Part shown: positions 7,233-63,820 of the stretch, piece after piece | How the letters are laid out: each line of letters opens with the position of its first letter | Position numbering within the stretch: the first letter of the stretch is position 1 | Assembly (NCBI GenBank): GCA_976226885.1 | Contig: OZ320315.1 | Location: 116,002,001-116,066,000 of the forward strand | Length of the DNA: 64,000 nt | Direction of reading: 5' to 3' | DNA from: Iphione sp. A-MEVVRFRX5 | Taxonomy: Eukaryota | Position numbers and translations under genes: made by a program | The notes under the pieces: model-generated | What the model was told of the DNA's origin: nothing | What the model saw: only the letters and a program-made list of their open reading frames with translations | Database searches by the model: none

Positions 7233-8123
7233 TTAAGAGATGCATTGTCTTGTGCAGGCTCTGGTTCTGGTTCTGGTTCTAGTGAAGTTGTACAACAGCT
7301 TGAAAAAGTCAGTTTCATTAGAATACTTCACCCTGAAAATAAACTCAGCAAGATAAGTATCAAGTAATTCCTTTGAACCACCATGTTTAAGGAGTGTCCT
7401 CTTCACACAGTAACAAGTACCCTCAGTGTTGTTGATGTGCACATCTGTCACCAGATCTTTGAAGGTCAGTGAGTGGTTGACTGTCAGATGTCTATATCCC
7501 TCCTCTCCTAGACAGCCATATGCCTTCCAGCAGTCCAAGGCGATGACAAATCCAGGCACAATGTACTTCTTGATGACTGGAAGGAGAGTTTTCCTGGACT
7601 GGTTCTCAATTTAACAAGAAAAATTTATCATTCTCTTCAAGTCCACCAAAAACTAATTGGCCATTTACATGTTGACCTCTATGGTACTTTCTCTTACAAA
7701 ACTTGCTCTCATCTATCTTCACTCCCACACCAGGGACACCAATCTGTTCACTATCCTTATCCTTGCCATGCAAAAATTAAGCAATCAACTACTACGCCAG
7801 CACATTCTATACCCAGCTGCACCTGCATAAAACTCTGTGGTATCTTTCAGGTCCAGTAGCAAGTGAGCTTGAGGACCTGTACTGGTTTAAGGTGTGTTCT
7901 TTCCATCCAGCTCTCTTCCTAATAGAAATCTTCTGGCACTTGCAACATCTCCCCTCCACACATGTTGGTCAGTCACAAAGCTGGGGTCTCACCAAAGTGA
8001 CAGTTCCCACTGCACACCCACTGCACAATCCCTGAAAATTCCCAAATATCTTCTCCTGCCTCAGCCATTTGTACAAATAACTGGGATCTCTGTATTATCA
8101 TAGAGAAATAGTGACTGGTCCAT
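7233..8123 (-). mobile_element. Merlin / ISXO2-like (IS1595-family DDE) transposase pseudogene, copy A
   Basis: Minus strand reads MDQ start (ATG at 8123), a Cys-rich N-terminus, then QIGVPGVGVKIDESKFCKRKYHRGQHVNGQLVFGGLEEN (~7630-7750), DCWKAY, TVNHS, NNTEG and LLDTYLAEFIFR. These are the hallmark ISXO2/Merlin DDE motifs. Frameshifted. Confidence 0.85.
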
Positions 8124-8139
8124 GACAGAAACAGTATAA

Positions 8140-8240
8140 AATTCTTCAAAGAAAACAATGCAAAAATCACAGAAAGAAAATCACAGTATAATCAAGCAAA
8201 CAAACTGTCAATAAAATCACAAGCAAAATCACATGATTTT
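8140..8240. repeat. AAAATCAC(AG) short direct repeats upstream of the Merlin start codon (present in every monomer and in Merlin copy B)
   Basis: 4-6 imperfect copies of aaaatcac(ag) per monomer (e.g. 9830-9930), and also at 48920-48975. Possibly Merlin subterminal repeats (inference). Confidence 0.6.
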
Positions 8241-8320
8241 GTGGAATAAATGCAATACCAGATGATCTACTCTGCATGTGGGTGAGACACATGGTGACCA
8301 AGGCAGGGAAATGTTCCATC

Positions 8321-8396
8321 TTTTATACCTAGAGGTGGGAAGCCATTCCAGTCAAACTCTGGAGTGGATCGGGGGTGGTCGGGTCTGGGTATAAAA
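8321..8396. promoter_or_regulatory. Back-to-back TATA boxes flanking a GT/CACCC-box-like motif (repeated in each monomer)
   Basis: ttttata at 8321-8327 (TATAAAA on minus), gggggtggtcggg at ~8371-8383, tataaaa at 8390-8396 (plus). Sequence match only; no expression evidence. Confidence 0.3.
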
Positions 8397-11300
8397 ACAG
8401 GAATAACTCCGGAACTAAGGGCAGATTCAAAAAAGGACAAAAGTGTCATGCTGCAGGCCAGAGGGAGGGTAGGAATATGTAGAAGATGGCTGTCAAGGGT
8501 TTCTATCAGAATTAGGGTTGTAAAGCTTTCTGAAAACTTCAAAAACCCCTCAAGGGTAGGATTCCGGAGTTTAGAGTAGATTGGAGGTGGTCGGGTCTGG
8601 TTATTAAAACCAGATCAGGTAAGTGCCACTCACCTACACTAGGCAAATGAATGGCTACAACCACAGGTGCATGCATGTCCATGTAGCTTGTACCAGCCAT
8701 CGTAGGAACTGGCTGATATGGCAGAGCCATATCTATCTACCTGCTCCTCCTCAACCTGACACAGGCCCTAACAACATCCAACTACCCTACGAACTAAATG
8801 AAGAGCCATCTTTCTTTCTGGGTAACTTTCACAAAAAAGAACGCACCTGACATAAATCCCAAAAACCCACTTAACTGAATCTGACTCTGAGGTTACTCAG
8901 GATGATAATTTTCACTTGACAGTAGTACAAGAAGATAATTAGGTTTTGAAATGAATCCTCCATAGTCCACAGATTTTGTACTTTTCTGATTCTGCTTCTG
9001 ACCAGTACCCAGCAAAGGTCAGCCTTTCTTGTCTGTCCAATCTATACAAGTTAAAATTCTCCACTGCTAAATAATTGTTTAGGTACCATTTTCCAGTTTG
9101 GATTTTGTTACAGATATTTCTTATGTTCATATGATTGAGTTTTACTCACATGTTTGACATCATCTGATATGAGTTGACATGTCAAGGTGTTTAACATGAA
9201 ATCAACATGTCGCCTGCATTAGCCATCAGAGGAACCTGTTGATATGGCAGAGCCATATCTACCTGCTCCTCGTCAACCTGACACAGGCCCCAACAACATC
9301 CAACTACCCTAAGAACTAAACTAAGAGCCATCTTTCTTTCTGAGTGTAATTTTCACAAAGAATGCACCTGGTATAAACCCCATAAACTTCTTGATGAGTG
9401 CAAGGAGAGTTTTCCTGGACTGGTTCTCAGTTTAACAAGAAAATATTTCTTAACTAATTGGCCATTCACATGTTGACCTCTATGGTACTTTCTCTCACAA
9501 AATGTGCTCTAATCTATCTTCACTCCCACACCAGGGCCACCAATCTGTTCACTATCCTTCTCCATGACTGCCATACAAAAATTAACCAATCAACTACTAC
9601 GCCAGCACATTCTATACCCAGCTGCACCTGCATAAAACTCTGTGGTATCTTTCAGGTCCAGTAGCAAGTGAGCTTGAGGACCTGTGCTGGTTCAAGGTGT
9701 GTTCTTTCCATCCAGCTCTCTTCCTAGTAGAAATCTTCCAGCACTTACAACACATGTCTCTATATTATCATAGAGAAATAGTGACTGGTCCATGGCAGAA
9801 ACAGTATAAAATTCTTCAAAGAAAACAATGCAAAAATCACAGAAAAATCAGTAAGGAAAATCACAGAAAGAAAATCACAGTAAAATCAAGCAAACAAACT
9901 GTCAATAAAATCACAAGCAAAATCACATGATTTTGTGGAATAAATGCAATACCAGATGATCTACTCTGCATGTGGGTGAGACACATGGTGACCAAGGCAG
10001 GGAAATGTTCCATCTTTTATACCTAGAGGTGGGAAGCCATTCCAGTCAAACTCTGGAGTGGATCGGGGGTGGTCGGGTCTGGGTATAAAAACAGGAATAA
10101 CTCCGGAACTAAGGGCAGATTCAAAAAAGGACAAAAGTGTCATGCTGCAGGCCAGAGGGAGGGTAGGAATATGTAGAAGATGGCTGTCAAGGGTTTCTAT
10201 CAGAATTAGGGTTGTAAAGCTTTCTGAAAACTCCAAAAACCCCTCAAGGGTAGGATTCCGGAGTTTAGAGTAGATTGGAGGTGGTCGGGTCTGGTTATTA
10301 AAACCAGATCAGGTAAGTGCCACTCACCTACACTAGGCAAATGAATGGCTACAACCACAGGTGCATGCATGTCCATGTAGCTTGTACCAGCCATCGTAGG
10401 AACTGGCTGATACGGCAGAGCCATATCTATCTACCTGCTCCTCCTCAACCTGACACAGGCCCTAACAACATCCAACTACCCTACGAACTAAATGAAGAGC
10501 CATCTTTCTTTCTGGGTAACTTTCACAAAAAAGAATGCACCTGACATAAATCCCAAAAACCCACTTAACTGAATCTGACTCTGAGGTTACTCAGGATGAT
10601 AATTTTCACTTGACAGTAGTACAAGAAGATAATTAGGTTTTGAAATGAATCCTCCATAGTCCACAGATTTTGTACTTTTCTGATTCTGCTTCTGACCAGT
10701 ACCCAGCAAAGGTCAGCCTTTCTTGTCTGTCCAATCTATACAAGTTAAAATTCTCCACTGCTGAATAATTGTTTAGGTACCATTTTCCAGTTTGGATTTT
10801 GTTACAGATATTTCTTATGTTCATATGATTGAGTTTTACTCACATGTTTGACATCATCTGATATGAGTTGACATGTCAAGGTGTTTAACATGAAATCAAC
10901 ATGTCGCCTGCATTAGCCATCAGAGGAACCTGTTGATATGGCAGAGCCATATCTACCTGCTCCTCGTCAACCTGACACAGGCCCCAACAACATCCAACTA
11001 CCCTAAGAACTAAACTAAGAGCCATCTTTCTTTCTGAGTGTAATTTTCACAAAGAATGCACCTGGTATAAACCCCATAAACTTCTTGATGAGGAGTGGAA
11101 GGAGAGTTTTCCTGGACTGGTTCTCAGTTGAACAAGAAAACATTTCTTAACTAATTGGCCATTCACATGTTGACCTCTATGGTACTTCCTCTTACAAAAT
11201 GTGCTCTAATCTATCTTCACTCCCACACCAGGGCCACTAATCTGTTCACTATCCTTCTCCATGACTGCCATACAAAAATTAACCAATCAACTACTACGCC

Positions 11301-14300
11301 AGCACATTCTATACCCAGGTGCACCTGCATAAAACTCTGTGGTATCTTTCAGGTCCAGTAGAAAGTGAGCTTGAGGACCTGTGCTGGTTCAAGGTGTGTT
11401 CTTTCCATCCAGCTCTCTTCCTAGTAGAAATCTTCAAGCACTTACAACACATGCTGATCAGTGGCATAGCTTGGACCTGTCACCAAAGTGACAGTTCCCA
11501 CTGCACACCCACTGTGCAACCCCTGAAAATTGTCAAATATCTTCTCCTGCCATAGCCTTTTATATAAATACCTGGGATCTCTATATTATCATAGAGAAAT
11601 AGTGACTGGTCCATGGCAGAAACAGTATAAAATTCTTCAAAGAAAACAATGCAAAAATCACAGAAAAATCAGTAAGGAAAATCACAGAAAGAAAATCACA
11701 GTAAAATCAAGCAAACAAACTGTCAATAAAATCACAAGCAAAATCACATGATTTTGTGGAATAAATGCAATACCAGATGATCTACTCTGCATGTGGGTGA
11801 GAAACATGGTGACCAAGGCAGGGAAATGTTCCATCTTTTATACCTAGAGGTGGGAAGCCATTCCAGTCAAACTCTGAAGTGGATCAGGGGTGGTCGGGTC
11901 TGGGTATAAAAACAGGAATAACTCCGGAACTAAGGGCAGATTCAAAAAAGGACAAAAGTGTCATGCTGCAGGCCAGAGGGAGGGTAGGAATATGTAGAAG
12001 ATGGCTGTCAAGGGTTTCTATCAGAATTAGGGTTGTAAAGCTTTCTGAAAACTTCAAAAACCCCTCAAGGGTAGGATTCCGGAGTTTAGAGTAGATTGGA
12101 GGTGGTCGGGTCTGGTTATTAAAACCAGATCAGGTAAGTGCCACTCACCTACACTAGGCAAATGAATGGCTACAACCACAGGTGCATGCATGTCCATGTA
12201 GCTTGTACCAGCCATCGTAGGAACTGGCTGATATGGCAGAGCCATATCTATCTACCTGCTCCTCCTCAACCTGACACAGGCCCTAACAACATCCAACTAC
12301 CCTACGAACTAAATGAAGAGCCATCTTTCTTTCTGGGTAACTTTCACAAAAAAGAACGCACCTGACATAAATCCCAAAAACCCACTTAACTGAATCTGAC
12401 TCTGAGGTTACTCAGGATGATAATTTTCACTTGACAGTAGTACAAGAAGATAATTAGGTTTTGAAATGAATCCTCCATAGTCCACAGATTTTGTACTTTT
12501 CTGATTCTGCTTCTGACCAGTACCCAGCAAAGGTCAGCCTTTCTTGTCTGTCCAATCTATACAAGTTAAAATTCTCCACTGCTAAATAATTGTTTAGGTA
12601 CCATTTTCCAGTTTGGATTTTGTTACAGATATTTCTTATGTTCATATGATTGAGTTTTACTCACATGTTTGACATCATCTGATATGAGTTGACATGTCAA
12701 GGTGTTTAACATGAAATCAACATGTCGCCTGCATTAGCCATCAGAGGAACCTGTTGATATGGCAGAGCCATATCTACCTGCTCCTCGTCAACCTGACACA
12801 GGCCCCAACAACATCCAACTACCCTAAGAACTAAACTAAGAGCCATCTTTCTTTCTGAGTGTAATTTTCACAAAGAATGCACCTGGTATAAACCCCATAA
12901 ACTTCTTGATGAGTGCAAGGAGAGTTTTCCTGGACTGGTTCTCAGTTTAACAAGAAAATATTTCTTAACTAATTGGCCATTCACATGTTGACCTCTATGG
13001 TACTTTCTCTCACAAAATGTGCTCTAATCTATCTTCACTCCCACACCAGGGCCACCAATCTGTTCACTATCCTTCTCCATGACTGCCATACAAAAATTAA
13101 CCAATCAACTACTACGCCAGCACATTCTATACCCAGCTGCACCTGCATAAAACTCTGTGGTATCTTTCAGGTCCAGTAGCAAGTGAGCTTGAGGACCTGT
13201 GCTGGTTCAAGGTGTGTTCTTTCCATCCAGCTCTCTTCCTAGTAGAAATCTTCCAGCACTTACAACACATGTCTCTATATTATCATAGAGAAATAGTGAC
13301 TGGTCCATGGCAGAAACAGTATAAAATTCTTCAAAGAAAACAATGCAAAAATCACAGAAAAATCAGTAAGGAAAATCACAGAAAGAAAATCACAGTAAAA
13401 TCAAGCAAACAAACTGTCAATAAAATCACAAGCAAAATCACATGATTTTGTGGAATAAATGCAATACCAGATGATCTACTCTGCATGTGGGTGAGACACA
13501 TGGTGACCAAGGCAGGGAAATGTTCCATCTTTTATACCTAGAGGTGGGAAGCCATTCCAGTCAAACTCTAGAGTGGATCGGGGGTGGTCGGGTCTGGGTA
13601 TAAAAACAGGAATAACTCTGGAACTAAGGGCAGATTCAAAAAAAGACAAAAGTGTCATGCTGCAGGCCAGAGGGAGGGTAGGAATATGTAGAAGATGGCT
13701 GTCAAGGGTTTCTATCAGAATTAGGGTTGTAAAGCTTTCTGAAAACTCCAAAAACCCCTCAAGGGTAGGATTCCGGAGTTTAGAGTAGATTGGAGGTGGT
13801 CGGGTCTGGTTATTAAAACCAGATCAGGTAAGTGCCACTCACCTACACTAGGCAAATGAATGGCTACAACCACAGGGGCATGCATGTCCATGTAGCTTGT
13901 ACCAGCCATCGTAGGAACTGGCTGATACGGCAGAGCCATATCTATCTACCTGCTCCTCCTCAACCTGACACAGGCCCTAACAACATCCAACTACCCTACG
14001 AACTAAATGAAGAGCCATCTTTCTTTCTGGGTAACTTTCACAAAAAAGAATGCACCTGACATAAATCCCAAAAACCCACTTAACTGAATCTGACTCTGAG
14101 GTTACTCAGGATGATAATTTTCACTTGACAGTAGTACAAGAAGATAATTAGGTTTTGAAATGAATCCTCCATAGTCCACAGATTTTGTACTTTTCTGATT
14201 CTGCTTCTGACCAGTACCCAGCAAAGGTCAGCCTTTCTTGTCTGTCCAATCTATACAAGTTAAAATTCTCCACTGCTGAATAATTGTTTAGGTACCATTT

Positions 14301-17300
14301 TCCAGTTTGGATTTTGTTACAGATATTTCTTATGTTCATATGATTGAGTTTTACTCACATGTTTGACATCATCTGATATGAGTTGACATGTCAAGGTGTT
14401 TAACATGAAATCAACATGTCGCCTGCATTAGCCATCAGAGGAACCTGTTGATATGGCAGAGCCATATCTACCTGCTCCTCGTCAACCTGACACAGGCCCC
14501 AACAACATCCAACTACCCTAAGAACTAAACTAAGAGCCATCTTTCTTTCTGAGTGTAATTTTCACAAAGAATGCACCTGGTATAAACCCCATAAACTTCT
14601 TGATGAGGAGTGGAAGGAGAGTTTTCCTGGACTGGTTCTCAGTTGAACAAGAAAACATTTCTTAACTAATTGGCCATTCACATGTTGACCTCTATGGTAC
14701 TTCCTCTTACAAAATGTGCTCTAATCTATCTTCACTCCCACACCAGGGCCACTAATCTGTTCACTATCCTTCTCCATGACTGCCATACAAAAATTAACCA
14801 ATCAACTACTACGCCAGCACATTCTATACCCAGGTGCACCTGCATAAAACTCTGTGGTATCTTTCAGGTCCAGTAGAAAGTGAGCTTGAGGACCTGTGCT
14901 GGTTCAAGGTGTGTTCTTTCCATCCAGCTCTCTTCCTAGTAGAAATCTTCAAGCACTTACAACACATGCTGATCAGTGGCATAGCTTGGACCTGTCACCA
15001 AAGTGACAGTTCCCACTGCACACCCACTGTGCAACCCCTGAAAATTGTCAAATATCTTCTCCTGCCATAGCCTTTTATATAAATACCTGGGATCTCTATA
15101 TTATCATAGAGAAATAGTGACTGGTCCATGGCAGAAACAGTATAAAATTCTTCAAAGAAAACAATGCAAAAATCACAGAAAAATCAGTAAGGAAAATCAC
15201 AGAAAGAAAATCACAGTAAAATCAAGCAAACAAACTGTCAATAAAATCACAAGCGAAATCACATGATTTTGTGGAATAAATGCAATACCAGATGATCTAC
15301 TCTGCATGTGGGTGAGAAACATGGTGACCAAGGCAGGGAAATGTTCCATCTTTTATACCTAGAGGTGGGAAGCCATTCCAGTCAAACTCTGAAGTGGATC
15401 AGGGGTGGTCGGGTCTGGGTATAAAAACAGGAATAACTCCGGAACTAAGGGCAGATTCAAAAAAGGACAAAAGTGTCATGCTGCAGGCCAGAGGGAGGGT
15501 AGGAATATGTAGAAGATGGCTGTCAAGGGTTTCTATCAGAATTAGGGTTGTAAAGCTTTCTGAAAACTTCAAAAACCCCTCAAGGGTAGGATTCCGGAGT
15601 TTAGAGTAGATTGGAGGTGGTCGGGTCTGGTTATTAAAACCAGATCAGGTAAGTGCCACTCACCTACACTAGGCAAATGAATGGCTACAACCACAGGTGC
15701 ATGCATGTCCATGTAGCTTGTACCAGCCATCGTAGGAACTGGCTGATATGGCAGAGCCATATCTATCTACCTGCTCCTCCTCAACCTGACACAGGCCCTA
15801 ACAACATCCAACTACCCTACGAACTAAATGAAGAGCCATCTTTCTTTCTGGGTAACTTTCACAAAAAAGAACGCACCTGACATAAATCCCAAAAACCCAC
15901 TTAACTGAATCTGACTCTGAGGTTACTCAGGATGATAATTTTCACTTGACAGTAGTACAAGAAGATAATTAGGTTTTGAAATGAATCCTCCATAGTCCAC
16001 AGATTTTGTACTTTTCTGATTCTGCTTCTGACCAGTACCCAGCAAAGGTCAGCCTTTCTTGTCTGTCTAATCTATACAAGTTAAAATTCTCCACTGCTAA
16101 ATAATTGTTTAGGTACCATTTTCCAGTTTGGATTTTGTTACAGATATTTCTTATGTTCATATGATTGAGTTTTACTCACATGTTTGACATCATCTGATAT
16201 GAGTTGACATGTCAAGGTGTTTAACATGAAATCAACATGTCGCCTGCATTAGCCATCAGAGGAACCTGTTGATATGGCAGAGCCATATCTACCTGCTCCT
16301 CGTCAACCTGACACAGGCCCCAACAACATCCAACTACCCTAAGAACTAAACTAAGAGCCATCTTTCTTTCTGAGTGTAATTTTCACAAAGAATGCACCTG
16401 GTATAAACCCCATAAACTTCTTGATGAGTGCAAGGAGAGTTTTCCTGGACTGGTTCTCAGTTTAACAAGAAAATATTTCTTAACTAATTGGCCATTCACA
16501 TGTTGACCTCTATGGTACTTTCTCTCACAAAATGTGCTCTAATCTATCTTCACTCCCACACCAGGGCCACCAATCTGTTCACTATCCTTCTCCATGACTG
16601 CCATACAAAAATTAACCAATCAACTACTACGCCAGCACATTCTATACCCAGGTGCACCTGCATAAAACTCTGTGGTATCTTTCAGGTCCAGTAGCAAGTG
16701 AGCTTGAGGACCTGTGCTGGTTCAAGGTGTGTTCTTTCCATCCAGCTCTCTTCCTAGTAGAAATCTTCCAGCACTTACAACACATGTCTCTATATTATCA
16801 TAGAGAAATAGTGACTGGTCCATGGCAGAAACAGTATAAAATTCTTCAAAGAAAACAATGCAAAAATCACAGAAAAATCAGTAAGGAAAATCACAGAAAG
16901 AAAATCACAGTAAAATCAAGCAAACAAACTGTCAATAAAATCACAAGCAAAATCACATGATTTTGTGGAATAAATGCAATACCAGATGATCTACTCTGCA
17001 TGTGGGTGAGACACATGGTGACCAAGGCAGGGAAATGTTCCATCTTTTATACCTAGAGGTGGGAAGCCATTCCAGTCAAACTCTAGAGTGGATCGGGGGT
17101 GGTCGGGTCTGGGTATAAAAACAGGAATAACTCTGGAACTAAGGGCAGATTCAAAAAAAGACAAAAGTGTCATGCTGCAGGCCAGAGGGAGGGTAGGAAT
17201 ATGTAGAAGATGGCTGTCAAGGGTTTCTATCAGAATTAGGGTTGTAAAGCTTTCTGAAAACTCCAAAAACCCCTCAAGGGTAGGATTCCGGAGTTTAGAG

Positions 17301-48360: not shown

Positions 48361-48409
48361 AATTTTCTAGGCTGAAGTTGCACAGTTTAGAGATTATGAT
48401 ATTCATTTA

Positions 48410-50370: not shown

Positions 50371-50649
50371 TGCTGGTAGGTATGGCAGTGCCAGAAGATG
50401 GCGAACAAACTAATGTGCAGAATCATTGGTTAAGTAGAGTGTCTGAAAATACAGGAACAATGATGGGACATTGCATGACCACTATCAAGCAAGTAATGCC
50501 TCTTTACGTTCAAATTAGTCAATATAGTCTCAGCTAATGAATGCAGTAAGGAAAATCGACAGTCCAGATCTGCTGACTACATAATTGGGTCCTAGATGGA
50601 CTCAGTCAGATATGATGCAAATGTCCACCCCCACTCATTGCATATGCCG

Positions 50650-53389: not shown

Positions 53390-53660
53390 ACACTTGGCTG
53401 CCACCTCCTCCACTGACTCAAATAGATCTAGAAGAATCTTCTCCAGATGTATGACCTCTATCTCTGGCAGAGGTAGAGGTAAAAACAAATCCAAATCCAA
53501 AAAGTCTCAAGCTCCTCCTCATCCATTTCCTGCAACTCAGGTAGGGCAGGTTCACATACACGGTACTGATGAGTGAGCTCATCACCAACCTGCCCCTCAC
53601 CATTCTCTACCTGACATACAGCAGTTGAGGAGGTGCAACTGGACACTGAATCAGCAGTGG
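53390..53660 (-). pseudogene. Acidic-motif family copy
   Basis: LDLFLPLPLPEIEVIHLEKILLDLFESVEEVAAKC. Confidence 0.5.
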
Positions 53661-53949
53661 AAGTTTGCAAGCCAGTGCACCAACTTTAATTGCTGGTATA
53701 GGACATGGCTGTACCCACAGATGCTGGGGTGGCAACTGGCTGGTCAACTGGTGTACGTCAGCCCTGGGTGGCACAGGTTGATATGGTGAAACCACGGCAA
53801 CCTTGTCATAGCTAACAGAAATACACATGCCACCCAACTAACTTACCTACTGACCTGGCCATGTTCAAGTTATTTAACATAAACCCTGTCTCTGTATCCT
53901 AGCTAAATTTCCCTTTCAAACAGTTACAATGTAAAAGTAAACTGAAATC

Positions 53950-54720
53950 TACAATGTTTGTCCTTGGAATTGTAAGGTATTAAACATACCTCACAAAAAT
54001 ATGATTGGTGGAAGAATCCTGCAATAGGATGGAAATACCCAATGGCCTCATGGTCATCATGCACAAGGTAGACACAGAGATGTTGTCCATCACTTGATCA
54101 TGAAATGGTACCCGGATGCACTTGTTGCCTTGTCTTTGACTGATAGCTAATATATCCAGACCCAACAAGGTCTTAAATTCTAGTATGTCTGCAATACTCA
54201 GTACATGGTCTGTGGACAAGTTTGCATTCTGACATAATCTAATAGCAAGGTCTCTTTGATTTACCCTTTTCTTGTCCAGGAGCTTTAGAAAATACCATAC
54301 AGGTACTTTCTTTACAAGCATGATGTTATTTAGAACACTACCCACAAGACCACCAGTCACTTTTTTTGATTGAAGCCACGCTGGGGACCTACATGTTGGG
54401 AACTGTCCTTGTAAGTAGGAATCCTCAGATCTTGCCCAGGACTGATGATGTGGGAGCTCCTGGTTTTCTTTCTTTTTTTCATTATATCTTTAACCAGGAA
54501 CTAGATATTCCTAATCACAGGACAGAGTTCTTTTCAGCCATCCCTTTCTGTCTCTCAGAGTTGGATGGACAGGGTACTTTTGTGACAGGCCATCTAGACA
54601 TTTTGATCCTTCCCAATGTTAACATAACATGTAAAGGAGACTCGAATGTCCTCCCCAGTATCCACCATGTCATCCATCCCAGGTTCAATTATGTAGGGAA
54701 TCATCACCCATCACATCCTC
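53950..54720 (-). mobile_element. Polinton/Maverick-like protein-primed DNA polymerase B gene, N-terminal region fragment
   Basis: QRDLAIRLCQNANL...EFKTLLGLDILAISQRQGNKCIRVP, then (frameshift) HLCVYLVHDD...YFHPIAGFFHQSYFCEVCLIPYNSKDKHC. This resembles the YLY...HF..I.GF...YFC..C..PY...H.C region preceding the exonuclease in invertebrate Polinton-like pPolB. No polymerase core is present. Confidence 0.55.
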
Positions 54721-54968
54721 AGTGGACATTGTTGCTTGATTTTGTAATGAAAATAGTTCCGGATCATGGATCTGATTATGGATCGGATGATTCTAATAGT
54801 AGTCCTTATGATACCTTCTTGAATCCAATGATTCGGTTTAATCTAAGAGGTCCTAATGAACTCCTAAATGATTAAAGAATTTCGGTTAGCCACAGGTGCC
54901 ACAGGTTGATATGGCACAAACACTGCAACCTGGTCCTAGCTGGCAGAATCATACACCATCACACTAAC

Positions 54969-55970
54969 TGGGGTTCCTCAAGGGTCCGTGTTAGGACCGC
55001 TATTATTTATAATTGCAACAAACGACATCATTGAAATAGCAAAGCCATGTGAATTAATTATATATGCAGATGACGTAACAATAATCGGGGATGCAACGAA
55101 TGCATGGGCATTACGACAAAAACTACAATATACATTGCGAAATGTAGAGAAGTGGACTGTATCAAATGGGTTAATTATAAACAAGGAAAAATCTAAGACT
55201 ATGTGCTTCGGTAAAGCCATTAAATTTAAATTGGATATTTCGTTGTTCGGGACAATTTTGGGTAATGTCCATGAGTATAAATTCGTGGGTTACAAATTGG
55301 ATCCGAAACTAACCTTTAGACCTTTTGTTGATGAAAAAATCAAGAAGATTAATTCTGTTAGTTACTTGTTGAGTAGATGCAAACATGTTTTGAACCAAGA
55401 GTTACGGGAAAAATTTTTTATAGCATTTGTCCAGCCACATGTGGATTTTGGTTTAAACCTAATTTTGTCAGCAAATCTTACTGAGCAAACAAAATTAAAA
55501 CGTGCCTGGTATCGAGGAATAAGGAGGTGTGTCCTAGGTTTGTTTTCATCTAATAGACAAATTGAGGAATGGTTATCATGGAGAAAGATATATTCATTAA
55601 AGGAGAGAATGATCTATCTATCACTGTTATCTGTAACTGATTTGTATAAATTCTCTTTTTGCAAGAGACGTCATCTATCTGCGACAAGGGCTGGTCAAAG
55701 AACACAGCTACAAATTCCCAAGCCAAACACCCAGCAGTTTAAAAGAAGCTTTATCTATAAGACATTGAGATGTTGGAATAATCTACCTAGTGATATAGTG
55801 GATAAAGAGAGGAATATTATTAAAAACTATTTGAGATCTAACATGTTGAAATTAGCAGCCGCCGAATAAAGTTCTTTTGTTACTGAATGCGGCTGAGTAT
55901 TTCTCAATAATACCATGTATTTACATATGTGTCGGGATTGCTCAATAAAAACTTTCAAATCAAATCAAAT
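54969..55970 (+). mobile_element. 5'-truncated LINE (CR1/L2-like), intact RT C-half ORF, AATAAA + (CAAAT)n tail, probable 5-bp TSD ctaac
   Basis: Starts at tggggttcctcaagggtccgtgttaggaccg (GVPQGSVLGP); YADD; ORF ends at 55869; tail ctcaataaaaactttcaaatcaaatcaaat. ctaac lies at 54964-54968 and 55971-55975. The empty-site paralog at ~53835 supports the junctions. Confidence 0.92.
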
Positions 55971-56339
55971 CTAACCTGCCTACCCACCTAGCCATGTTCA
56001 AGTTACTTAAAGCTCTGTCTCGTTGTCCTGGCTAAATGTCCCTTTCAAATAGTTACAATCAAAAAGTACACTGAAATCTAAGATAAATTATGCCAAATCG
56101 CTTGTGGTATGCCAACATTTGTGTGAAGCCTTGCTGGGGTTCACTGTCAGACCACCTCTTGTTCCACATTGATTAAGGGGGCAAACCCATCAGCATGTTT
56201 ATACTTCTTTACCTCCTGCTCGGGGTACATCCCCTCCAGCAACTCATGTGCACCAGTTATAAAGGAAGCCCGTGTGACAGAAATGAGGTAGAGCCTCATA
56301 TCATCTGTCATATCATGTGCCCCCTTAATCATTTAGGGC

Positions 56340-57788
56340 ATGCTGGATGCAGGTATTATTCAGCCAAGTCACAGCCCGTGGGCGTCTCCAATCGTTTTGG
56401 TAGAAAAGAAGGATGGCACCCAACGGTTTTGCGTGGATTACAGAAGGGTCAATGATGTGACCTCCAAGTTTAATTGGCCACTGCCACGCATCGATGACAT
56501 ATTGGCTAAGCTGGGAGGCAGTACGTGCTTCTCTACTCTCGATTTGAGAAGTCAGTACCATCAGGTGCCTATGAATGAAGCCTCTCGGCCTAAAACTGCT
56601 TTCGCATGTCACGCGGGGTTGTTTGAATTCAATGTCATGCCTTTTGGGTTATGTAACGCTCCGAGTGTGTTTTGTGAGTTGATGGCAAAAGTGCTCGATG
56701 GAATAAATGGCACGTTTACCACAGCGTATATTGACGATATTTTAATCTGGTCGCCAGATGAAGCAACGCATTTGTGCCATTTGCAGATGGTCTTTGATCG
56801 GTTAAGACAGGCGGGCTTGAAACTTAAACGTTCCAAGTGTGAGTTCTTCACACCACAGATTCGATATCTGGGGCATGTTGTGACTCCTGACGGGGTACAA
56901 CCTGATATGGACAAGGTTGAGAGCATTGCAGGGTTAGAACCACCGCAGGACGTGAAGGGAGTGCGATCCTTCATTGGAATGGCCAGTTTTTATCGGCGGT
57001 ACGTACCCACCTTTGCGTTGATTGCCGAGCCGCTTATTGCCATGACCCGAAAGCATGCGGAGTTCGTGTGGACGGAGGATTGTCAGATCGCTTTTGATCA
57101 GCTAAAAGAGAAGCTGACTCACCCACCGGTTTTGGCGTTCCCGAGATTCGATAGAATCTTCATCCTGTATACGGATGCAAGTGACGCTTGCATAGGGGCA
57201 GTGTTAGCCCAGGAGTTTGAGGAAGGCGAACGTCCCATACAGTATATGTCGCATCATCTGAGTGATACCCAACGGAGATGGCCCGTGATCGAGAAGGAAG
57301 GGTATGCCATTGTGTCCGCTATTCGCAAGTTTCGATCGTACTTATACGGACATAAGTTTATTGTCCGTACTGATCACAAACCCTTGCAATTTCTGTTCAA
57401 ATCAGAACAAAAGAACGCTAAGGTGCAACGTTGGGCAATGCAGTTATCTGAGTACAATTGCGAAATTGAATACATCCCCAGGAAGCAAAATATACCCGCG
57501 GATGCTTTGAGTAGGCTCTGGTCCAAGCGTAATGAAGGCGCAGCCACAGAAGAAATGGCTCCTGTGGAAGGGACGGATACGGATGGGGAGTCAGGGGCCC
57601 TTAGTGACTCCTCCTCTGTTCAGAGCCAGGAGAGTGAGCGTCCGAATACTCCCAAGACCGACTCGGAGGGAGAGGACGTACCACTAATTTGCGAAACGGA
57701 CTTGCGAAATGTAGATTTGAAGAGGGCGCAGGCACAGGACCCGGAATGCCAACGGCTGAAGGAAGGGCCATTGATTTACATTAACTGA
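56340..57788 (+). CDS. pol: Ty3/Gypsy pol fragment: complete RT + RNase H in one uninterrupted 482-aa ORF; no gag, protease, integrase or LTR
   Basis: MLDAGIIQPSHSPWASPIVLVEKKDG..RFCVDYRRVN; LDLRSQYHQ; MPFGLCNAP; YIDDILI; YLGH; LYTDAS...IGAVLAQ; IEKEGYAIV; RTDHKPL; ADALSR. CpG-rich relative to its flanks. Confidence 0.95.
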   Translation: MLDAGIIQPSHSPWASPIVLVEKKDGTQRFCVDYRRVNDVTSKFNWPLPRIDDILAKLGGSTCFSTLDLRSQYHQVPMNEASRPKTAFACHAGLFEFNVMPFGLCNAPSVFCELMAKVLDGINGTFTTAYIDDILIWSPDEATHLCHLQMVFDRLRQAGLKLKRSKCEFFTPQIRYLGHVVTPDGVQPDMDKVESIAGLEPPQDVKGVRSFIGMASFYRRYVPTFALIAEPLIAMTRKHAEFVWTEDCQIAFDQLKEKLTHPPVLAFPRFDRIFILYTDASDACIGAVLAQEFEEGERPIQYMSHHLSDTQRRWPVIEKEGYAIVSAIRKFRSYLYGHKFIVRTDHKPLQFLFKSEQKNAKVQRWAMQLSEYNCEIEYIPRKQNIPADALSRLWSKRNEGAATEEMAPVEGTDTDGESGALSDSSSVQSQESERPNTPKTDSEGEDVPLICETDLRNVDLKRAQAQDPECQRLKEGPLIYIN

Positions 57789-57789
57789 C

Positions 57790-57915
57790 AGGGATATGAT
57801 GTGTTGACCAGAGAAGTGCTTCCTTGAAAGATTCCTTCTGCATCAGCCTTCTGTATTCTTGTTGGGTAATTCCAGTCTTGCATGTGTGGTGCTGCCATCT
57901 CTGGCAGATATCACA
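57790..57915 (-). mobile_element. PHD-finger-like fragment of the type found at MULE transposase N-termini
   Basis: CDICQRWQHHTCKTGITQQEYRRLM. Confidence 0.55.
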
Positions 57916-58140
57916 TGACTCACCCTAGCTCTCACCATCACTCTAAGACTCACTCATGGACTCACCCTTCTCACACTTGCCTGCTATCTTCTCCTCTGGT
58001 AACAGATCCAGAAGCAGTACCTCTAGATCGTCCACATCCAACTCAGGAAGAGACAGGGGAAGAGAGAGGTGCAGTAGGTCCTCAAGTTGCCCCACCTCAT
58101 GATGAAGAAATTCAGGCTCAACAGGATGATGAGGGACCAG
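57915..58140 (-). pseudogene. Acidic-motif family copy, fused to the PHD fragment
   Basis: LSLPLSLPELDVDDLEVLLLDLLPEEKIAGKCEKGESMSES; close paralog of 46860-47005. Confidence 0.6.
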
Positions 58141-58199
58141 TACATTGGAATTATCTTTCTCAATGTCTGAGACAAATGATATGAGGCTCACACATCATG

Positions 58200-58703
58200 C
58201 ATATCATTGTGGATCACCTGGCTCCAAAGAGGAGGACAGTTTTTTGAGGGATTCCAGTTTGGACTTGTTACCTTGCTCCAATGGTGGTCGTATCTTGTGT
58301 TGTCCATCAAGTTGCACCTTCAAATGAAGCAAGTTGATCTCTCTGTGGAGCATGGTAATGAGAACATTGAGGTTGAGGCAGTCATGTGGTGCACCATGAT
58401 GCAACCTTAATGCTATCCCTCAGTGTCCTTGTAGGTCCTGACTCTGCACTTGTATGTTGTTTCAACCTAAGTCTTCCTGAGACGTTCCAATAATTCTTGA
58501 ATCTTTTCGGTGCCTTAGGTGGCTGGACATCTTTCTGTCAGCTGGGTAAATGCCAGCTCAAGATGGTTCACAGGTAAGTTGGGGCGAACCAACAGTTCTT
58601 TTATGTATAAACACAAAGGCATTGGGTGTGCGTATGCTCTTTGCAGACCCACCGCTTTGACTTTTCTGTACATAGCCTGTACATGAAATGCACAGCCATG
58701 GAT
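58200..58703 (-). mobile_element. MULE transposase C-terminal fragment (close paralog of 45470-45835)
   Basis: IHGCAFHVQAMYRKVKAVGLQRAYAH...; HGAPHDCLNLNVLITMLHREINLLHLKVQL. Homology stops abruptly at cagccatggat (58703). Confidence 0.85.
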
Positions 58704-58890
58704 AGTTTTATTTTTTTTTTTGGAACTTTTATTTATCCTGGCGACATACTGAAGCCAGCCATATTTCATACAGTATATCAGATTCCATAGTAAATATACA
58801 TTTTTTTTTATAAACTTTAATTTCTCCTGGTGTGAATGATACATTAAAATGTATAAATGGACCAGGTTTCGGTTTTGAAAATACCAATAA
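58704..58890 (-). mobile_element. Probable retroelement 3' end (element D) with AATAAA and A-rich tail
   Basis: Minus strand reads ...ctggcttcagtatgtcgccaggataaataaaagttccaaaaaaaaaaaataaaact and abuts the MULE break. No coding sequence, so identity is inferred. Confidence 0.45.
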
Positions 58891-58892
58891 TG

Positions 58893-61400
58893 ATATGAGA
58901 TGAGATGAAGATTGTATTGGCAAGGTGAATTCTTCATTATTTTCCCTTGTATTGTTTTCAATCCCTTTCACTGATTCGTTGTTTAGTTAAATATATCCGA
59001 TCTTTATCATCCCTTAAACAAAATGTTCATTACAAAATTACCTTATACAGACATATACACCCTCTTTCCCCAGAAATAGTCATCATCCTACATGAAAATT
59101 CTCAGACATATATATTTCTCATACACAGATTTCTTCAGGCCATTCTTAAATTTCTCCACCGGCAGTTCTTGTAGCACTCTTGGTAATTTGTTCCAAATAA
59201 TGTATCCATTATATCTGATTGAGTTACAATATATCTCTCTTTGAACCCTGCTTATTGTTCCTATTGAGTACCTCCTATATCTTGTATCATGCGGTCTTAT
59301 TGTTTGCCCTTGGTTTGTCTCAGTGTGTTTATACATTAGTACCGTCTGTATCTCCGTTCTCAGACTGAACGGTAACAATTTCACTTCCCTTAATAGATTT
59401 TTATTTGAAATATATGTCACTTTATAACCAAGTGTTCTCCTATAGATCCTTCTTAGTGTCAACTCCACCTTTTGTATTACTTCATGTTTCCTTGATGGCA
59501 AAAAACATGCACCATACTCAATTATTGGTTGAATATGCGTCTTTAATATCAGAGTTTTTTGAACTCCTCGGTGTAAGTAACACTTCATTCTATTTAACAG
59601 GTTTATTCTTGGCTGTATGTTGGAGTAAATATGTTCTAAATGTTTATTGAAGTTCATATTCTTGTTCAGTACAACCCTCAAATACTTATAATTTGTTACC
59701 CTCTTCAATTGGTTATCACTAATATTCAATCTTACATTGCATATCTCTTCTTTCTGTCCGTTATTATGAAAAATCATTAACTCACTTTTGCTAATGTTAA
59801 CTAAAATTTTATTCTTTTTATACCATTCTCAGGCCTGGTCTAACATTCTTTGCATTTTTTGTTGGAGATCCATTGCACTATCACTTGTTATATACAGTAC
59901 AGTGTCATCAGCATATAGTAGGACCTCCCCTTGTTCTACAGCATGGACTATATCATTAATAAACAACCCGAATAATAATGGTCCTAACACAGAGCCTTGC
60001 AGAACCCCGCACTGTATTTTCATTAAATCTGATGTCCTTTTATTAACCTTAACTCTTTGATATCTTTCATTTAAGTAATTGTCAAACCATTTCAATTCTT
60101 TACCAATCCCTAGTTTCTTTAATTTCTGTAATAATATTTGGTGATTTACTGAATCAAAAGCTTTACGGCAGTCTATGTAGATAGCCCCAATCAGTTTGTT
60201 TTCATTTAATCCCTCATATATATAGTTAGTAAATACTGTTAATGCTGTCCCCGTGCTATAATTTGCCCGAAAACCATGTTGCTTCTCACTTATAAGGTTG
60301 TATTTGTTTAAATGTTCCATTAGTTGCTCATATACTACTTTTTCCAAGATTTTAGAAAAAACATTTAAAATGCTAACTGGCCGATAATTACCTATTTCTG
60401 TCCGTTTTCCACCCTTGTAAATGGGGGTTACGCAAGATTCCTTCCATGCCGATGGAATTTCTTTCATTGTAAGTGATTGATTTATGAAATTACAAACTTC
60501 TTTATTCATTAATAGGAGTATGTTCTTGACCACATTCATGTTTAAATTTAACCATCCTGTCGGTTTATTCATAGGTAACCCTTTAACTATCTTTGTATAT
60601 GTATTGTTGTCAATTAAGTCAAAATTAAACAAATTTGTTTGTTCAATACTTTCCCCCTTTAGGCCTACTTCCCCCAGTTCACATAATATATTCAGACCTA
60701 TGTTTATGAAGAATTTGTTAATTTCCCCAGGTATTTCATTTTCCGGAATCCAACTACCTTCATCATGTAACAGTATTTTATTTCGTGGCTTGTCTCCTAT
60801 TATCTCTTGTCTTATTATTCTCCAAAACCTTTTTGTATTACCTCTATTCCCTTCCATCTGACTTTCAATATATTCCCTTTTCTTTTTTGTCATCAAATTT
60901 CTTACATACCTTCCTTGTTCTTTGGCATAATTTAGATCCACTTCGTTTTTACTTTGATAATATATTATCATACAATGTCTTCCTATGTTCGCATTCATTT
61001 TTTCACTCTATATCAAACCAAGCGTTTGTTACTCTCCGTGCTTTTTCATACCTGTATGGACATAATCTGTTGACTATTTTCTTTATTTTGTTTTCAAAAT
61101 ATGACCATTTTGATTCTAGTGTTACACTATAGTCATAAATGTATCCCCATCTAGTCTTATTTAATAGTCTTCTCAATTTTTGCCCTGTATAGTATTTCAT
61201 TATCCGATATTTATGCTGTATACTAGTTTGTTTTAACTGCTTAGCATTTATCAAATTTATCCATACAGTATAATGATCACTAATATACTTTCTATCAACT
61301 ATACAGGTTATGTTTTCCTGACTGTTTGTAATTACTATATCTATTATCGCACGGGTAGTCAGTGTTTCCCTGGTATAAATATTTACCTGTTGAAAAAATC
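58893..61400 (-). mobile_element. 5'-truncated LINE (element C): APE C-terminus, linker, full RT; one frameshift and one stop; (TCTCA)n tail
   Basis: TRETLTTRAIIDIVITN...ISDHY (61395-61255); NYRPVSIL; YIDCRKAFDSVNH; VLQGSVLGPLLF; LYADDT; in-frame TGA at 59829; ORF ends at 59088; tail ccaatacaatcttcatctcatctcatatc. Confidence 0.92.
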
Positions 61401-61408
61401 CATATTTA

Positions 61409-61640
61409 GATTTGATTTGATTTGATGCGATGCGATTTATTTCTGAAGGGTGAACATACAGTATTTGTATTAGATCTTCAGATCTTTGTACCTATGAATA
61501 TGTACAGATGATATGAAATGTATGAACAGGGATTATTCGATAATACAGGAGTATGACATGTATAAGCACTGATTATTCGATTATACAAGAATATGACATT
61601 AATCATTTGTTACATTTCTTGTTCCTAGTAAGGTTCTCGA
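61409..61640 (-). mobile_element. Short LINE 3'-UTR remnant (element B) with AATAAA and (TCAAA)n tail
   Basis: Minus strand reads cagaaataaatcgcatcgcatcaaatcaaatcaaatc, the same pentamer type as the 55 kb LINE. Contains an internal ~40-bp tandem duplication at 61531-61600. Confidence 0.55.
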
Positions 61641-61642
61641 CA

Positions 61643-63820
61643 ATAAGATAAGATAAGATAAGATAAGAAGAATTTATTGACCATCCAACAGCTCGCCTCT
61701 TTGAGGCGTTTTTACAGGTATGGATGTACTTCCTGATAGGCTTGAATGATGTTTTGCAGCAAACAGTTAATACATTAGAACACATGAAATATCATTTACA
61801 ACAGTAAATACATTAAAAATCATTTAAAAGAGTAAAGGTGAGCGCAAAGCTGGTGTTGAATAATTTGAATGATGTTTTAGTCAGTTAAGTGATGTTAGTG
61901 TTAGATAGGATAACTAGATTGAGAACCTAGAGAGTAGCTTAAAAGTCTCCATATCAGGGGCATCTCTGATAAAGGGATCAAGCTTATTCCAGAGGCATAA
62001 GCCATGATAGTGTAGAGATCTTTTAATGAATTCTGTATTTGGTTTTGCTATCTTTATTAATTTTGAGTCATGTTGTCTAGTCGTAAGAGAATTTTGAAGG
62101 GGCAGCATATCCAGTAGGATGAGCTTATGAATAACATTTAACATGAACCATCTTCTTCTTGCGAATGTGTCTCGAATGTTGAAGAAGATATGCAAGTCTT
62201 TCTCACAGGGCATAGTTTTCTTTAATTGATAAGTCTTGGTTTTTGTATAGATAATAGCTAAGGCTCTATTTTGAAGTTTTTGAAGTCTCATGATGCCACT
62301 CTTGCGGTTACAAGATAAGAATATAGTTGAATAATCAACATAGGGCAAGATGAGGACTTTGTAAACTCTGATCAAATCATCTGTATTGAAATAGTTTTTC
62401 AACTTGTTCAAGAGGTAGATTTTGCTGGATATCTTCTTAATTAGTTTCTCTAATTCTTCAGAAAAGTGCATATGGCGATCAAACATGATTCCTAGATACG
62501 GGTAGCTATCAACAAAGTCTATAACTTCATTATTGACCATTAGGTTACTGGTACATGTGGCATTATGTGTATATACAGGTAAGATTTTTGTTTTCTTGAA
62601 ATTTAGGGTTAATAAGTTGTTCTGGCACCATAGACACGCTTGCTTTATAACCTTTTCAGTCTCTACCATCAGTACATCCAGGTTATCATTTTCAACCATT
62701 ATTAAGGTGTCATCCGCAAATAATGTAGTGCTAGCATTTATGTGACCTGGCATATCGTTAATATAGAGAGAGAAGAGTAGTGGTCCCAAGTTGGACCCTT
62801 GTGGGACCCCTATGTTGCAGTCTCTTAAATCTGATGATAAACCATTTACAACACAATATTGTTTCCTAGAGCTTAGATAGTCTTTAAACCATTTAGTCGA
62901 ATGATCTGATAGGTGGAACTGAGTTCTTAATTTTGTGATTAGAATAGCATGGTCGACAGTGTCAAAAGCCTTACGTAGGTCTATGAATACCAGGTTTGAG
63001 TGATGGCCCTCATTGATATTCTCATATACTTTATTTGCCACATGGAAAACAGCTTCTCTTGTACCTCTTGATTTCCGAAATCCAAATTGGTTGGCAACTA
63101 ATAGGCTGTGTTGTTCTAGATGATCATACAGTTGATTGAATACAATCTTTTCTAATATTTTAACAGGAGTTGGCAAAAGTGATATAGGTCTATAATTATC
63201 AGTGGATTCAGGGTTGCCTTTTTTAAAAAGAGGAATAACCTTGGCTATTTTCCAGTTTTGGGGGATCTTCTCAGTTTCAATACTAAGATTGATCAGATGT
63301 GTAAATTGATTAATCGTTTTGGAAATGCAATGCCAAAATAAAGTAGGTGATATGCCCGGAAGATTAGTGAACTTTTTCTTATTAAGTTGATTGATGACCA
63401 ATAATACATCTTTTTTGGTGATCTTCTTAAGATTGAAGTTGGGCACATCATGTGAAGTATCAGAATGTGTTACTTCCACATTTTTCGCTACATAATTCCT
63501 CCTTAGGTCTTGGGCAATGTTTGCAAAATAGTCATTCATATGATTAGGTACTTGATTGAGAGGAATGTTAACGTTCTCTTTCTTTATATTAATGAAAGAT
63601 GATTTAGTAGTTGCAGTACCAGTCAATTCTTTCATTAGAGCCCAGTAATCCTTGCTATTTTTTCGGATATCATGTAACTTTCTTCTGTAGTATGATTCCT
63701 TATAAAATTTGACTTTCTTCCTTATTTGTTGTTTCAAGTGTGCAGTTATTCTCTTAGTGTCTATATCTTTTCTCTTCTTATATTTTTTGAGGAAATAATT
63801 TTTTAGTCTAATTTCTCTTA
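61643..63820 (-). mobile_element. 5'-truncated LINE (element A): uninterrupted 607-aa RT ORF (61914-63737), 3' stem-loop, AATAAA, (CTTAT)n tail
   Basis: NYRPISLL; FIDLRKAFDTVDH; GVPQGSNLGPLLF; LFADDT; YLGIMFD. Stem-loop cgcctc-ttt-gaggcg at 61694-61708; (taaga)5 at ~61643-61667. The 5' boundary is uncertain. Confidence 0.95.

What the first reader, a model, noticed from the sequence alone, without database searches (positions are those of the whole stretch)
7233..63820. Strong co-orientation of unrelated TE fragments: candidate unistrand piRNA-cluster-like 'trap' locus
Seen: outside the array, my manual tally gives 18 TE fragments on the minus strand (Merlin x2, Harbinger, MULE x5, LINE x8, DIRS/Ngaro, Polinton-like) and 2 on plus (LINE at 55 kb, Gypsy at 56-58 kb). 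The two plus-strand elements look young (intact ORFs; the Gypsy piece is CpG-rich). The unassigned ORF families and all 15 array Merlin pieces are also minus. No host exon was found. Established: unistrand piRNA clusters such as Drosophila flamenco are mosaics of truncated TEs oriented antisense to one long transcript. Inference: a plus-strand transcript here would be antisense to at least six TE superfamilies. Caveat: several fragments are local duplicates, so the counts are not independent.
Basis: partly seen in the sequence, partly recalled or inferred. Interest (0 to 1): 0.72.

Follow-up and report, generated by a model that had tools for sequence, protein, structure and literature searches.

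The report
One-way transposon stack with viral relic
About 200,000 bases of an animal chromosome, this window included, are packed with broken jumping genes and one RNA-virus gene remnant that nearly all point the same way, starting just after a predicted promoter facing the other way, so the region likely makes silencing small RNAs, though no RNA data were available to test it.

Summary
With duplicates collapsed the window holds 10 minus and 2 plus elements (p=0.04). The biased domain runs about -101 kb to +96 kb (19 minus, 3 plus). Controls are even: 20 random 50-kb windows 34/33, a TE-dense neighbour 15/15. The domain holds the genome's only detected Mononegavirales polymerase remnant, on minus. 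It begins 1-2 kb downstream of an apparently single-copy CpG island whose motifs predict plus-strand transcription. Three PIWI-clade genes exist; no host exon was found inside. Best reading (0.6): a flamenco-like unistrand piRNA source, with bias across LINEs, DNA transposons, DIRS, Polintons and env-Gypsy alike. Main rival: a giant first intron or lncRNA without piRNAs; a plus-strand GPCR sits just past the right edge. No RNA run was listed, so transcription and piRNAs are untested. The scan noted similar stacks in other genomes.

The parts
1..64000 (-). The whole window is the middle third of a co-oriented domain that runs from about 101 kb left of base 1 to 32 kb right of base 64000. Parts outside the window: CpG island and predicted plus-strand promoter at L010:7000-9500 (G000:C4 about 115,899,000-115,901,500); scrambled env-Gypsy, DIRS, Polinton and LINE remnants in L010-L020 (one plus LINE in L016); Mononegavirales L remnant at L021:2758-5169 minus; LINEs, full-length Gypsy and Pogo in L021-L024, 6 of 6 units minus
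   Evidence: domain limits; unit counts; island; viral element
2690..3209 (-). Gypsy fragment
7236..8088 (-). Merlin transposase fragment, seed of the array
   Evidence: Pfam PF12762 E 2e-13
7565..35583 (-). Tandem array of about 1.7-1.8-kb units (3,515-bp higher-order repeat), each with a minus Merlin piece; counted as one element
   Evidence: self-BLAST up to 99% between 3,515-bp repeats; 15 Merlin pieces; 31 plus-strand AATAAA
36574..37943 (-). Harbinger/PIF transposase fragments
   Evidence: PF13359, PF13613; other genomic copies 73-75%
43285..44169 (-). LINE RT fragment
   Evidence: PF00078
44838..45047 (-). DIRS-type RT fragment
   Evidence: tblastn E 8e-13
45535..46187 (-). MULE fragment (partly duplicated at 58.2-58.9 kb and at +74 to +75 kb)
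47877..48406 (-). LINE RT fragment
   Evidence: PF00078
48512..48961 (-). Merlin fragment related to the array (collapsed with it)
50660..51733 (-). Second MULE, not collapsed with the first
   Evidence: other copies 79-84%
53954..54342 (-). Polinton DNA polymerase B fragment
   Evidence: tblastn 51-53% identity
54940..55970 (+). Plus-strand 5'-truncated LINE, no close relative found in the genome
   Evidence: PF00078; best long matches 77-78%
56335..57770 (+). Plus-strand internal Gypsy pol piece without LTRs, young
   Evidence: 98-99% to 39 other copies
58309..58967 (-). MULE fragment, local duplicate of 45.5 kb
59091..61491 (-). LINE ORF2 in three open pieces
61917..63830 (-). Young LINE ORF2, unrelated to its neighbours
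   Evidence: 638-aa open frame; about 100% to a C15 copy; at most 47% aa to other domain LINEs over alignments longer than 50 residues

Best explanation
The window is the middle third of a roughly 197-kb stretch in which remnants of many unrelated transposons and one RNA-virus gene lie almost all on the minus strand, and it is likely a unistrand piRNA source transcribed on the plus strand from a predicted CpG-island promoter at its left edge. Shown: the strand bias, its extent, its absence from controls, the independence of the LINE insertions, the viral remnant, the CpG island at the boundary, and PIWI-clade genes in the genome. Inferred: RNA polymerase II makes one long plus-strand, partly spliced non-coding precursor; it is cut into phased piRNAs antisense to the trapped elements; insertions antisense to the precursor are kept because they yield silencing guides and bring fewer premature poly(A) sites, while sense insertions are mostly purged; direct local duplications then multiply the retained pieces.
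For: Domain from the island to +97 kb: 19 minus, 3 plus collapsed units, p=0.0009; 18:3, p=0.0015 with the viral element merged into its LINE. Out-of-sample fixed 50-kb flanks 11:1, one-sided p=0.003; strict library 10:1, p=0.006. Controls: 20 random 50-kb windows (17 with hits) 34 minus, 33 plus, same-strand pairs 63 against 74 opposite; TE-dense 200 kb nearby 15:15; right outer flank 6 minus, 7 plus. TE-coding bases 54,179 minus, 4,572 plus from -120 to +99 kb outside the array. Ten LINE pieces compared share no nucleotide match over 43 bp, so they are separate insertions, 8 minus, 2 plus (one minus piece lies 17 kb left of the final boundary). DNA transposon and Polinton units 7 of 7 minus. 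An extended ORF library adds 20 minus, 1 plus hits, the plus one an antisense frame inside a minus Gypsy (many are duplicates). The maximal-scoring segment of minus-TE bases is -101 to +96 kb, starting 1-2 kb after the island core; 1 of 5,120 700-bp windows holds all four promoter-type motifs. YY1 motifs sit just downstream of human start sites with strong strand bias (PMC11160661, passages). Plus strand is T-rich in TE-masked domain DNA (A-T skew -0.064; 20 unmasked controls at most 0.035 either way), and the sense strand is T-rich in 4 of 4 host genes measured. The only PF00946 match found in 1.18 Gb lies in the domain, on minus, as in mosquito clusters (PMC7161354 passages; bioRxiv 2022.08.22.504762 abstract and two sections). 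env remnants cover 7.0% of the domain, all minus, against 1.15% in random windows. Three of 4 Argonaute-family exons tested are PIWI-clade (5 loci found).
Against: No RNA evidence of any kind. Heavy collapsing leaves few units: a scan over the 57 ordered units of the 464 kb gives 27 of 2,000 random strings as extreme, and the window was picked from many. The left outer flank also leans minus (10:5). 127 of 128 self-matches inside the domain are direct, so much of the bulk is local duplication. The viral element may have entered with its LINE and is not an independent orientation. No TE was detected between +96 kb and a plus-strand GPCR at +109 kb, and the T+G skew continues to about +116 kb, which fits a giant first intron equally. 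The array carries 31 plus-strand AATAAA, and AATAAA is not clearly depleted on plus (126 against 150). A young sense Gypsy piece is tolerated. The skew is confounded by TE composition. The promoter motifs were chosen after seeing the sequence and come from vertebrate work. env cover is also high (4.0%) in the unbiased TE-dense control.
Confidence: 0.6

Rival explanations
1. The island drives an ordinary plus-strand gene or lncRNA whose first intron spans about 200 kb (for example the 5' UTR of the single-exon GPCR at +109 kb); sense insertions were purged because they disturb splicing or elongation, and no piRNAs are made in bulk.
For: Donor-like sites follow the island motifs; an intact plus-strand GPCR frame lies just past the last minus element and the first plus TE comes after it; the skew runs to about +116 kb. 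Antisense bias of retroelements in introns is known from mammals (recalled).
Against: Random windows show no within-window co-orientation (63 against 74 pairs). In four spectrin-family genes (153 kb) gaps between matched exons are at most about 16 kb and the only 2 intronic elements found are sense (too few to measure a bias). The GPCR belongs to an expanded family most of whose closer relatives lie 20-100 kb apart in tandem. DNA transposons are biased too (7 of 7). This rival does not predict the viral element. No coding exon was found in the domain.
Confidence: 0.2
2. A heterochromatic, subtelomeric TE graveyard in which chance early insertions were multiplied by direct duplications, giving an apparent bias with no transcript behind it.
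For: 127 of 128 internal self-matches are direct, including scrambled 67-100% duplicates, besides a 28-kb array; the locus is 2.35 Mb from the contig end; old elements are strongly CpG-depleted (0.12-0.15); thousands of 200-kb segments exist in the genome, so one extreme case is possible.
Confidence: 0.13
3. A piRNA source fed by read-through from the plus-strand host gene that ends at -120 kb, as in mosquito core clusters, rather than by its own promoter.
For: A plus-strand gene of an expanded glycosyltransferase-like family, with at least three open exons and canonical splice sites, ends at -120.0 kb; mosquito core clusters mostly start at the end of an upstream gene (bioRxiv 2022.08.22.504762, section read).
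Against: The gene has poly(A)-type signals 224 and 578 nt after its stop; the dense stack starts 19 kb later, right after the island; DNA downstream of its paralogue at C4:116.94 Mb is not biased.
Confidence: 0.07

Closest known systems
flamenco and flam-like unistrand piRNA clusters of Drosophila (PMC10643416, passages; PMC10495008, passages)
   Same: Over 100 kb, repeat-dense, strongly one-strand; found by the same kind of strand scan; env-bearing Gypsy remnants enriched and antisense to the predicted transcript; about 86% of units on one strand (figures in the passages for simulans-clade flamenco copies are 67-78% antisense); own promoter at one edge (predicted here).
   Different: In flam-like clusters the LTR bias is driven by Gypsy elements alone; here LINEs, Merlin, MULE, Harbinger, Pogo, DIRS and Polintons share it. 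Subtelomeric rather than pericentromeric position. No transcript or piRNA shown here.
Aedes aegypti flamenco-like EVE cluster 38 (about 143 kb; PMC7161354, passages) and mosquito core piRNA clusters (bioRxiv 10.1101/2022.08.22.504762, abstract and two sections)
   Same: TE and non-retroviral viral remnants on one strand, including TE-EVE hybrids; similar size.
   Different: One RNA-virus element here, not many, and it abuts a LINE; the predicted source is an own CpG-island promoter, not read-through from a gene as in most core clusters.
Endogenous bornavirus-like elements in mammals (PMC4574747, search listing and start of abstract only)
   Same: Mononegavirales mRNA remnant apparently copied by a retrotransposon enzyme, proposed to give antiviral piRNAs.
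   Different: Polymerase (L) rather than nucleoprotein gene; closest solved structures are rhabdovirus-type L proteins; invertebrate-type genome.
Annelid piRNA loci (Capitella teleta, PMC8915122, passages; polychaete TE-mosaic transcripts, PMC8556966, passages)
   Same: PIWI genes present; transcripts over 8 kb made of mixed TE fragments were seen in polychaetes.
   Different: Capitella loci are under 20 kb and the authors state that no flamenco-like locus was found; this domain is about ten times longer. That this genome is an annelid rests on an earlier unchecked note.

Membership tests
Unistrand piRNA cluster (flamenco type) | Long (over 100 kb) repeat-rich region with TE remnants on one strand | tested here: met
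   About 197 kb, 19 minus to 3 plus units, controls even
Unistrand piRNA cluster (flamenco type) | One long Pol II precursor antisense to the TEs, from a defined promoter | tested here: inconclusive
   Only predicted: CpG island with plus-oriented motifs at the boundary; no RNA data reachable
Unistrand piRNA cluster (flamenco type) | Abundant 24-32 nt, 1U, phased small RNAs from one strand, bound to PIWI proteins | not testable with these tools
Unistrand piRNA cluster (flamenco type) | Host has PIWI-clade Argonautes | tested here: met
   3 of 4 tested C-terminal exons match PIWI structures far better than AGO; full genes not assembled
Unistrand piRNA cluster (flamenco type) | No protein-coding host gene spanning the region | tested here: inconclusive
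   No host family above Pfam cut-off in 334 window frames of 45 aa or more, 286 plus flank frames of 60 aa or more and 149 minus flank frames, apart from genes outside the domain; short, non-coding or Pfam-less exons would be missed (the last exon of the -120 kb gene has no Pfam hit); minus frames of L011-L021 and L023 under 150 aa were not scanned
flam-like subtype (van Lopik et al.) | Strand bias driven by Gypsy elements only | tested here: not met
   LINEs 8 of 10 and DNA transposon/Polinton units 7 of 7 are also minus
flam-like subtype (van Lopik et al.) | Enrichment of env-bearing Gypsy remnants in antisense | tested here: met
   13,264 bases minus, 0 plus; 7.0% against 1.15% random and 4.0% TE-dense control; inflated by local duplication
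Mosquito core (read-through) piRNA cluster | Non-retroviral viral elements antisense to the transcript | tested here: met
   One Mononegavirales L element on minus; antisense only if the predicted direction is right
Mosquito core (read-through) piRNA cluster | Starts at the end of an upstream same-strand gene and lacks its own promoter | tested here: not met
   Gene ends 19 kb before the stack, with poly(A)-type signals, and a CpG island intervenes; sequence-level test only
Intronic antisense bias | Exons of one plus-strand gene on both sides of the biased region | tested here: inconclusive
   Predicted non-coding first exon on the left and a single-exon GPCR on the right; no evidence that they are joined

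The most novel reading that the evidence does not exclude
A non-arthropod invertebrate (an annelid, by an earlier unchecked note) has a flamenco-sized master locus with its own CpG-island promoter that stores antisense memory of every transposon class and of an RNA virus, so that large unistrand piRNA traps with antiviral content exist in a lineage where published work found only small piRNA loci.
Probability: 0.4. Interest if true: 0.75.

Novelty: new member of a known kind. Interest (0 to 1): 0.55.

Why it matters
Unistrand piRNA traps are well studied in flies and mosquitoes; the one annelid small-RNA survey found here reports no locus above 20 kb. A 197-kb candidate with a predicted start site, locus-specific sequence that maps uniquely, young and old insertions, and a single RNA-virus remnant makes three questions testable in one place: whether such master loci exist outside arthropods and vertebrates, whether they trap all transposon classes rather than Gypsy alone, and whether captured RNA-virus genes give antiviral piRNAs there. 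If no piRNAs are found it is still a likely case of one long transcript shaping insertion orientation.

Tried and rejected
No RNA holder was listed for window:44201-54200; this says nothing about expression, and no reads could be laid. Rfam at gathering scores on the window, L009, L010 and L024: 0 matches. CpG depletion as a sign of transcription: rejected, because it extends beyond the domain and four host gene bodies are not depleted (0.46-0.84). AATAAA depletion on plus: not seen clearly. A small inversion explaining the two adjacent plus elements: rejected, since the DNA between them matches local duplicates in direct orientation. 'Plus elements are young, minus are old': rejected. Weak Pfam hits in window frames (CARD_2, RuvA_N, WDGH, UPAR_LY6, T4_y05I_C, VipE) are all below cut-off and were treated as chance. 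A search for the erythrocruorin linker family as a phylum marker found nothing and rang in no control, so it is uninformative. Intronic orientation bias could be sampled in only four genes, with 2 insertions. Three of 20 control windows had no TE hit and add nothing to the counts. The age of the minus LINE at 59-61.5 kb was not obtained, because Gypsy copies filled the 40 scored candidates. Literature searches for a flamenco-sized cluster or Mononegavirales elements in annelids or molluscs (22, 13 and 3 papers held the terms, 20, 12 and 3 listed) showed none by title, abstract start or the passages read; supplements were not read, and the transcripts listed in an additional file of PMC8556966 may bear on novelty.
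Full report
Setting. The window is G000:C4:116,002,001-116,066,000, 2.35 Mb from the end of a 118-Mb contig in a 1.18-Gb animal genome. Coordinates below are window coordinates; negative values and values above 64,000 are flanks fetched as L001-L040. An earlier unchecked note calls the organism an annelid; my one marker search was uninformative.

Observation. The 28-kb array (7.6-35.6 kb; 3,515-bp higher-order repeat) carries 15 minus Merlin pieces and counts once. After merging neighbouring pieces and collapsing same-class pieces 70% alike over 80 bp, the window has 10 minus and 2 plus units (p=0.039), or 9 and 2 with a library that excludes proteins from within 100 kb (p=0.065). The claim that the plus elements are the young ones fails: the plus LINE has no long match above 78%, whereas a minus LINE is about 100% identical to a copy on C15 and a minus full-length Gypsy has 99.8% identical ends.

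Is it more than chance? Fixed 50-kb flanks give 5 minus and 1 plus on the left, 6 and 0 on the right (one-sided p=0.003; strict 10:1, p=0.006). The maximal-scoring segment of minus-strand TE bases over 464 kb is -101 to +96 kb. It holds 19 minus and 3 plus units (p=0.0009), or 18 and 3 if the viral element is merged with its LINE. Twenty random 50-kb windows, 17 with hits, give 34 minus and 33 plus, with no excess of same-strand pairs (63 against 74). A TE-dense 200-kb stretch 0.8 Mb away gives 15 and 15. The right outer flank gives 6 minus and 7 plus; the left outer flank leans minus, 10 and 5. A scan statistic on the 57 ordered units, allowing any segment and either strand, is reached by 27 of 2,000 coin-toss strings, so the evidence is good but not overwhelming. 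Local duplication is heavy: 127 of 128 self-matches inside are direct, against 119 of 159 outside. It cannot be the whole cause, since ten LINE pieces compared are unrelated at DNA level (8 minus, 2 plus) and 7 of 7 DNA-transposon and Polinton units are minus.

What else is in the domain. A Mononegavirales polymerase remnant (804 codons stop to stop, PF00946 E 9e-110) lies 2.8 kb past the window on minus (L021:2758-5169). It is the only match of that family found in the genome (1 of 2 candidates), has no DNA copy among 40 scored candidates, is 34% identical to its best database relative, and is nearest to rhabdovirus-type L proteins among solved structures. It abuts the start of a LINE ORF2, which suggests capture by that LINE's enzyme (inference). 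The left half is a scrambled store of env-bearing Gypsy pieces: env remnants cover 7.0% of the domain, all minus, against 1.15% in random windows and 4.0% in the dense control. No host family was found inside the domain among 286 plus and 149 minus flank frames, though the method misses short or Pfam-less exons.

Direction and start of a transcript (predicted). At -103 to -100.5 kb (L010:7000-9500) lies a CpG island (o/e 0.79-1.17) with almost no repeat match in the 1.6 Mb held; its core has no second copy among the scored genome candidates apart from a 140-bp repeat. It has E-box, NRF1-like, CRE and plus-strand YY1 motifs, each pair followed by a plus donor-like site; 1 of 5,120 windows of 700 bp has all four, but the motifs are recalled and were chosen after viewing. 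In human data YY1 lies just downstream of start sites with strong strand bias (PMC11160661, passages). The TE stack begins 1-2 kb later. TE-masked domain DNA is T-rich on plus beyond all 20 controls, the direction seen on the sense strand of 4 of 4 host genes, although TE composition confounds this. The genome has five Argonaute-family loci; three of four tested are PIWI-clade.

Mechanism. Most likely (0.6) a long plus-strand non-coding precursor from the island is processed into piRNAs antisense to the trapped elements, antisense insertions are retained and sense ones mostly lost, and direct duplications amplify the store. Only the layout is shown; transcription, processing and selection are inferred. 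Against: 31 plus-strand AATAAA in the array, no clear AATAAA depletion, a tolerated young sense Gypsy piece. The main rival (0.2) is a giant first intron or lncRNA: a plus-strand single-exon GPCR lies at +109 kb, no TE was detected between it and the last minus element, and the skew runs to about +116 kb. Against that rival, sampled genes are compact, their 2 intronic insertions are sense, and random windows show no co-orientation. Chance plus duplication (0.13) and read-through from the plus-strand gene ending at -120 kb (0.07) fit less well.

Comparison. It works like flamenco, flam-like clusters and the Aedes EVE cluster (PMC10643416, PMC10495008, PMC7161354, passages; bioRxiv 2022.08.22.504762, abstract and two sections). 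It differs from flam-like clusters, where the LTR bias is due to Gypsy alone, and from mosquito core clusters, which mostly lack their own promoter. Membership is not established, because piRNA production is the defining feature. In Capitella no locus above 20 kb was found (PMC8915122, passages); polychaete transcriptomes hold TE-mosaic transcripts over 8 kb (PMC8556966, passages); mollusc clusters are known (PMC6128900, abstract start and two passages). Searches showed no report of such a locus in an annelid. The scan's notes hold five comparable candidates from other genomes, one of them not reproduced by its own follow-up; I did not check them.

Verdict. A real, about 197-kb co-oriented TE and virus-remnant domain with a predicted promoter: a good candidate new member of a known kind. 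Interest 0.55.

Noticed in passing
L021:720-5169 (window +64.7 to +69.2 kb): The viral L frame ends within about 25 bases of the start of a LINE ORF2 frame, in the place where ORF1 would be, and a second LINE piece lies just upstream; it looks like a LINE-virus chimera. The LINE has long open frames but no genomic match above about 76-80%.
   Followed up: partly
window 56335-57770: A 1,435-bp internal pol piece of a very abundant young Gypsy family is inserted with no LTR on either side; how an internal piece alone got in is unexplained.
   Followed up: partly
window 7565-35583: Tandem array with alternating 1,821 and 1,694-bp units forming a 3,515-bp higher-order repeat; the unit is a mosaic also found in pieces at 48.4-49.0, 52.5-52.8 and +79.8 to +80.2 kb, and nowhere else in the 1.6 Mb held.
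   Followed up: partly
L005-L009 (window -160 to -119 kb): Inverted segmental duplicate (mostly 80-95%) of C4:116.93-117.02 Mb, carrying a plus-strand member of an expanded glycosyltransferase-like gene family whose closest paralogues lie on minus 0.9-1.6 Mb away; homology stops at about -119.4 kb.
   Followed up: partly
L014:593-6902 (window -69.4 to -63.1 kb): Minus-strand element with 219-bp direct ends 99.5% identical, a gag-like frame and a 1,350-codon frame with protease and a zinc finger but no reverse transcriptase match: possibly a young non-autonomous LTR element.
   Followed up: no
L011-L017 (window -94 to -37 kb): Twelve minus-strand matches to one unnamed ORF lying beside a Gypsy pol in a control locus (L073:3512-4252), at 32-41% identity.
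   Followed up: partly
L007:3649-8038 (window -136 to -132 kb): Two LINE RT frames lie back to back on opposite strands and overlap at their 5' parts, perhaps one element with an inversion.
   Followed up: no
L020:1796-3679, L028:3932-4549, L038:1707-3485: LINE ORF1-type frames with a NADAR domain match, already noted elsewhere in this genome by the scan.
   Followed up: no
L200-L217 against window 7565-39100: Host gene bodies have CpG o/e 0.46-0.84, while old repeats here have 0.12-0.15, which suggests methylation of repeat-rich subtelomeric DNA more than of gene bodies in this genome.
   Followed up: no
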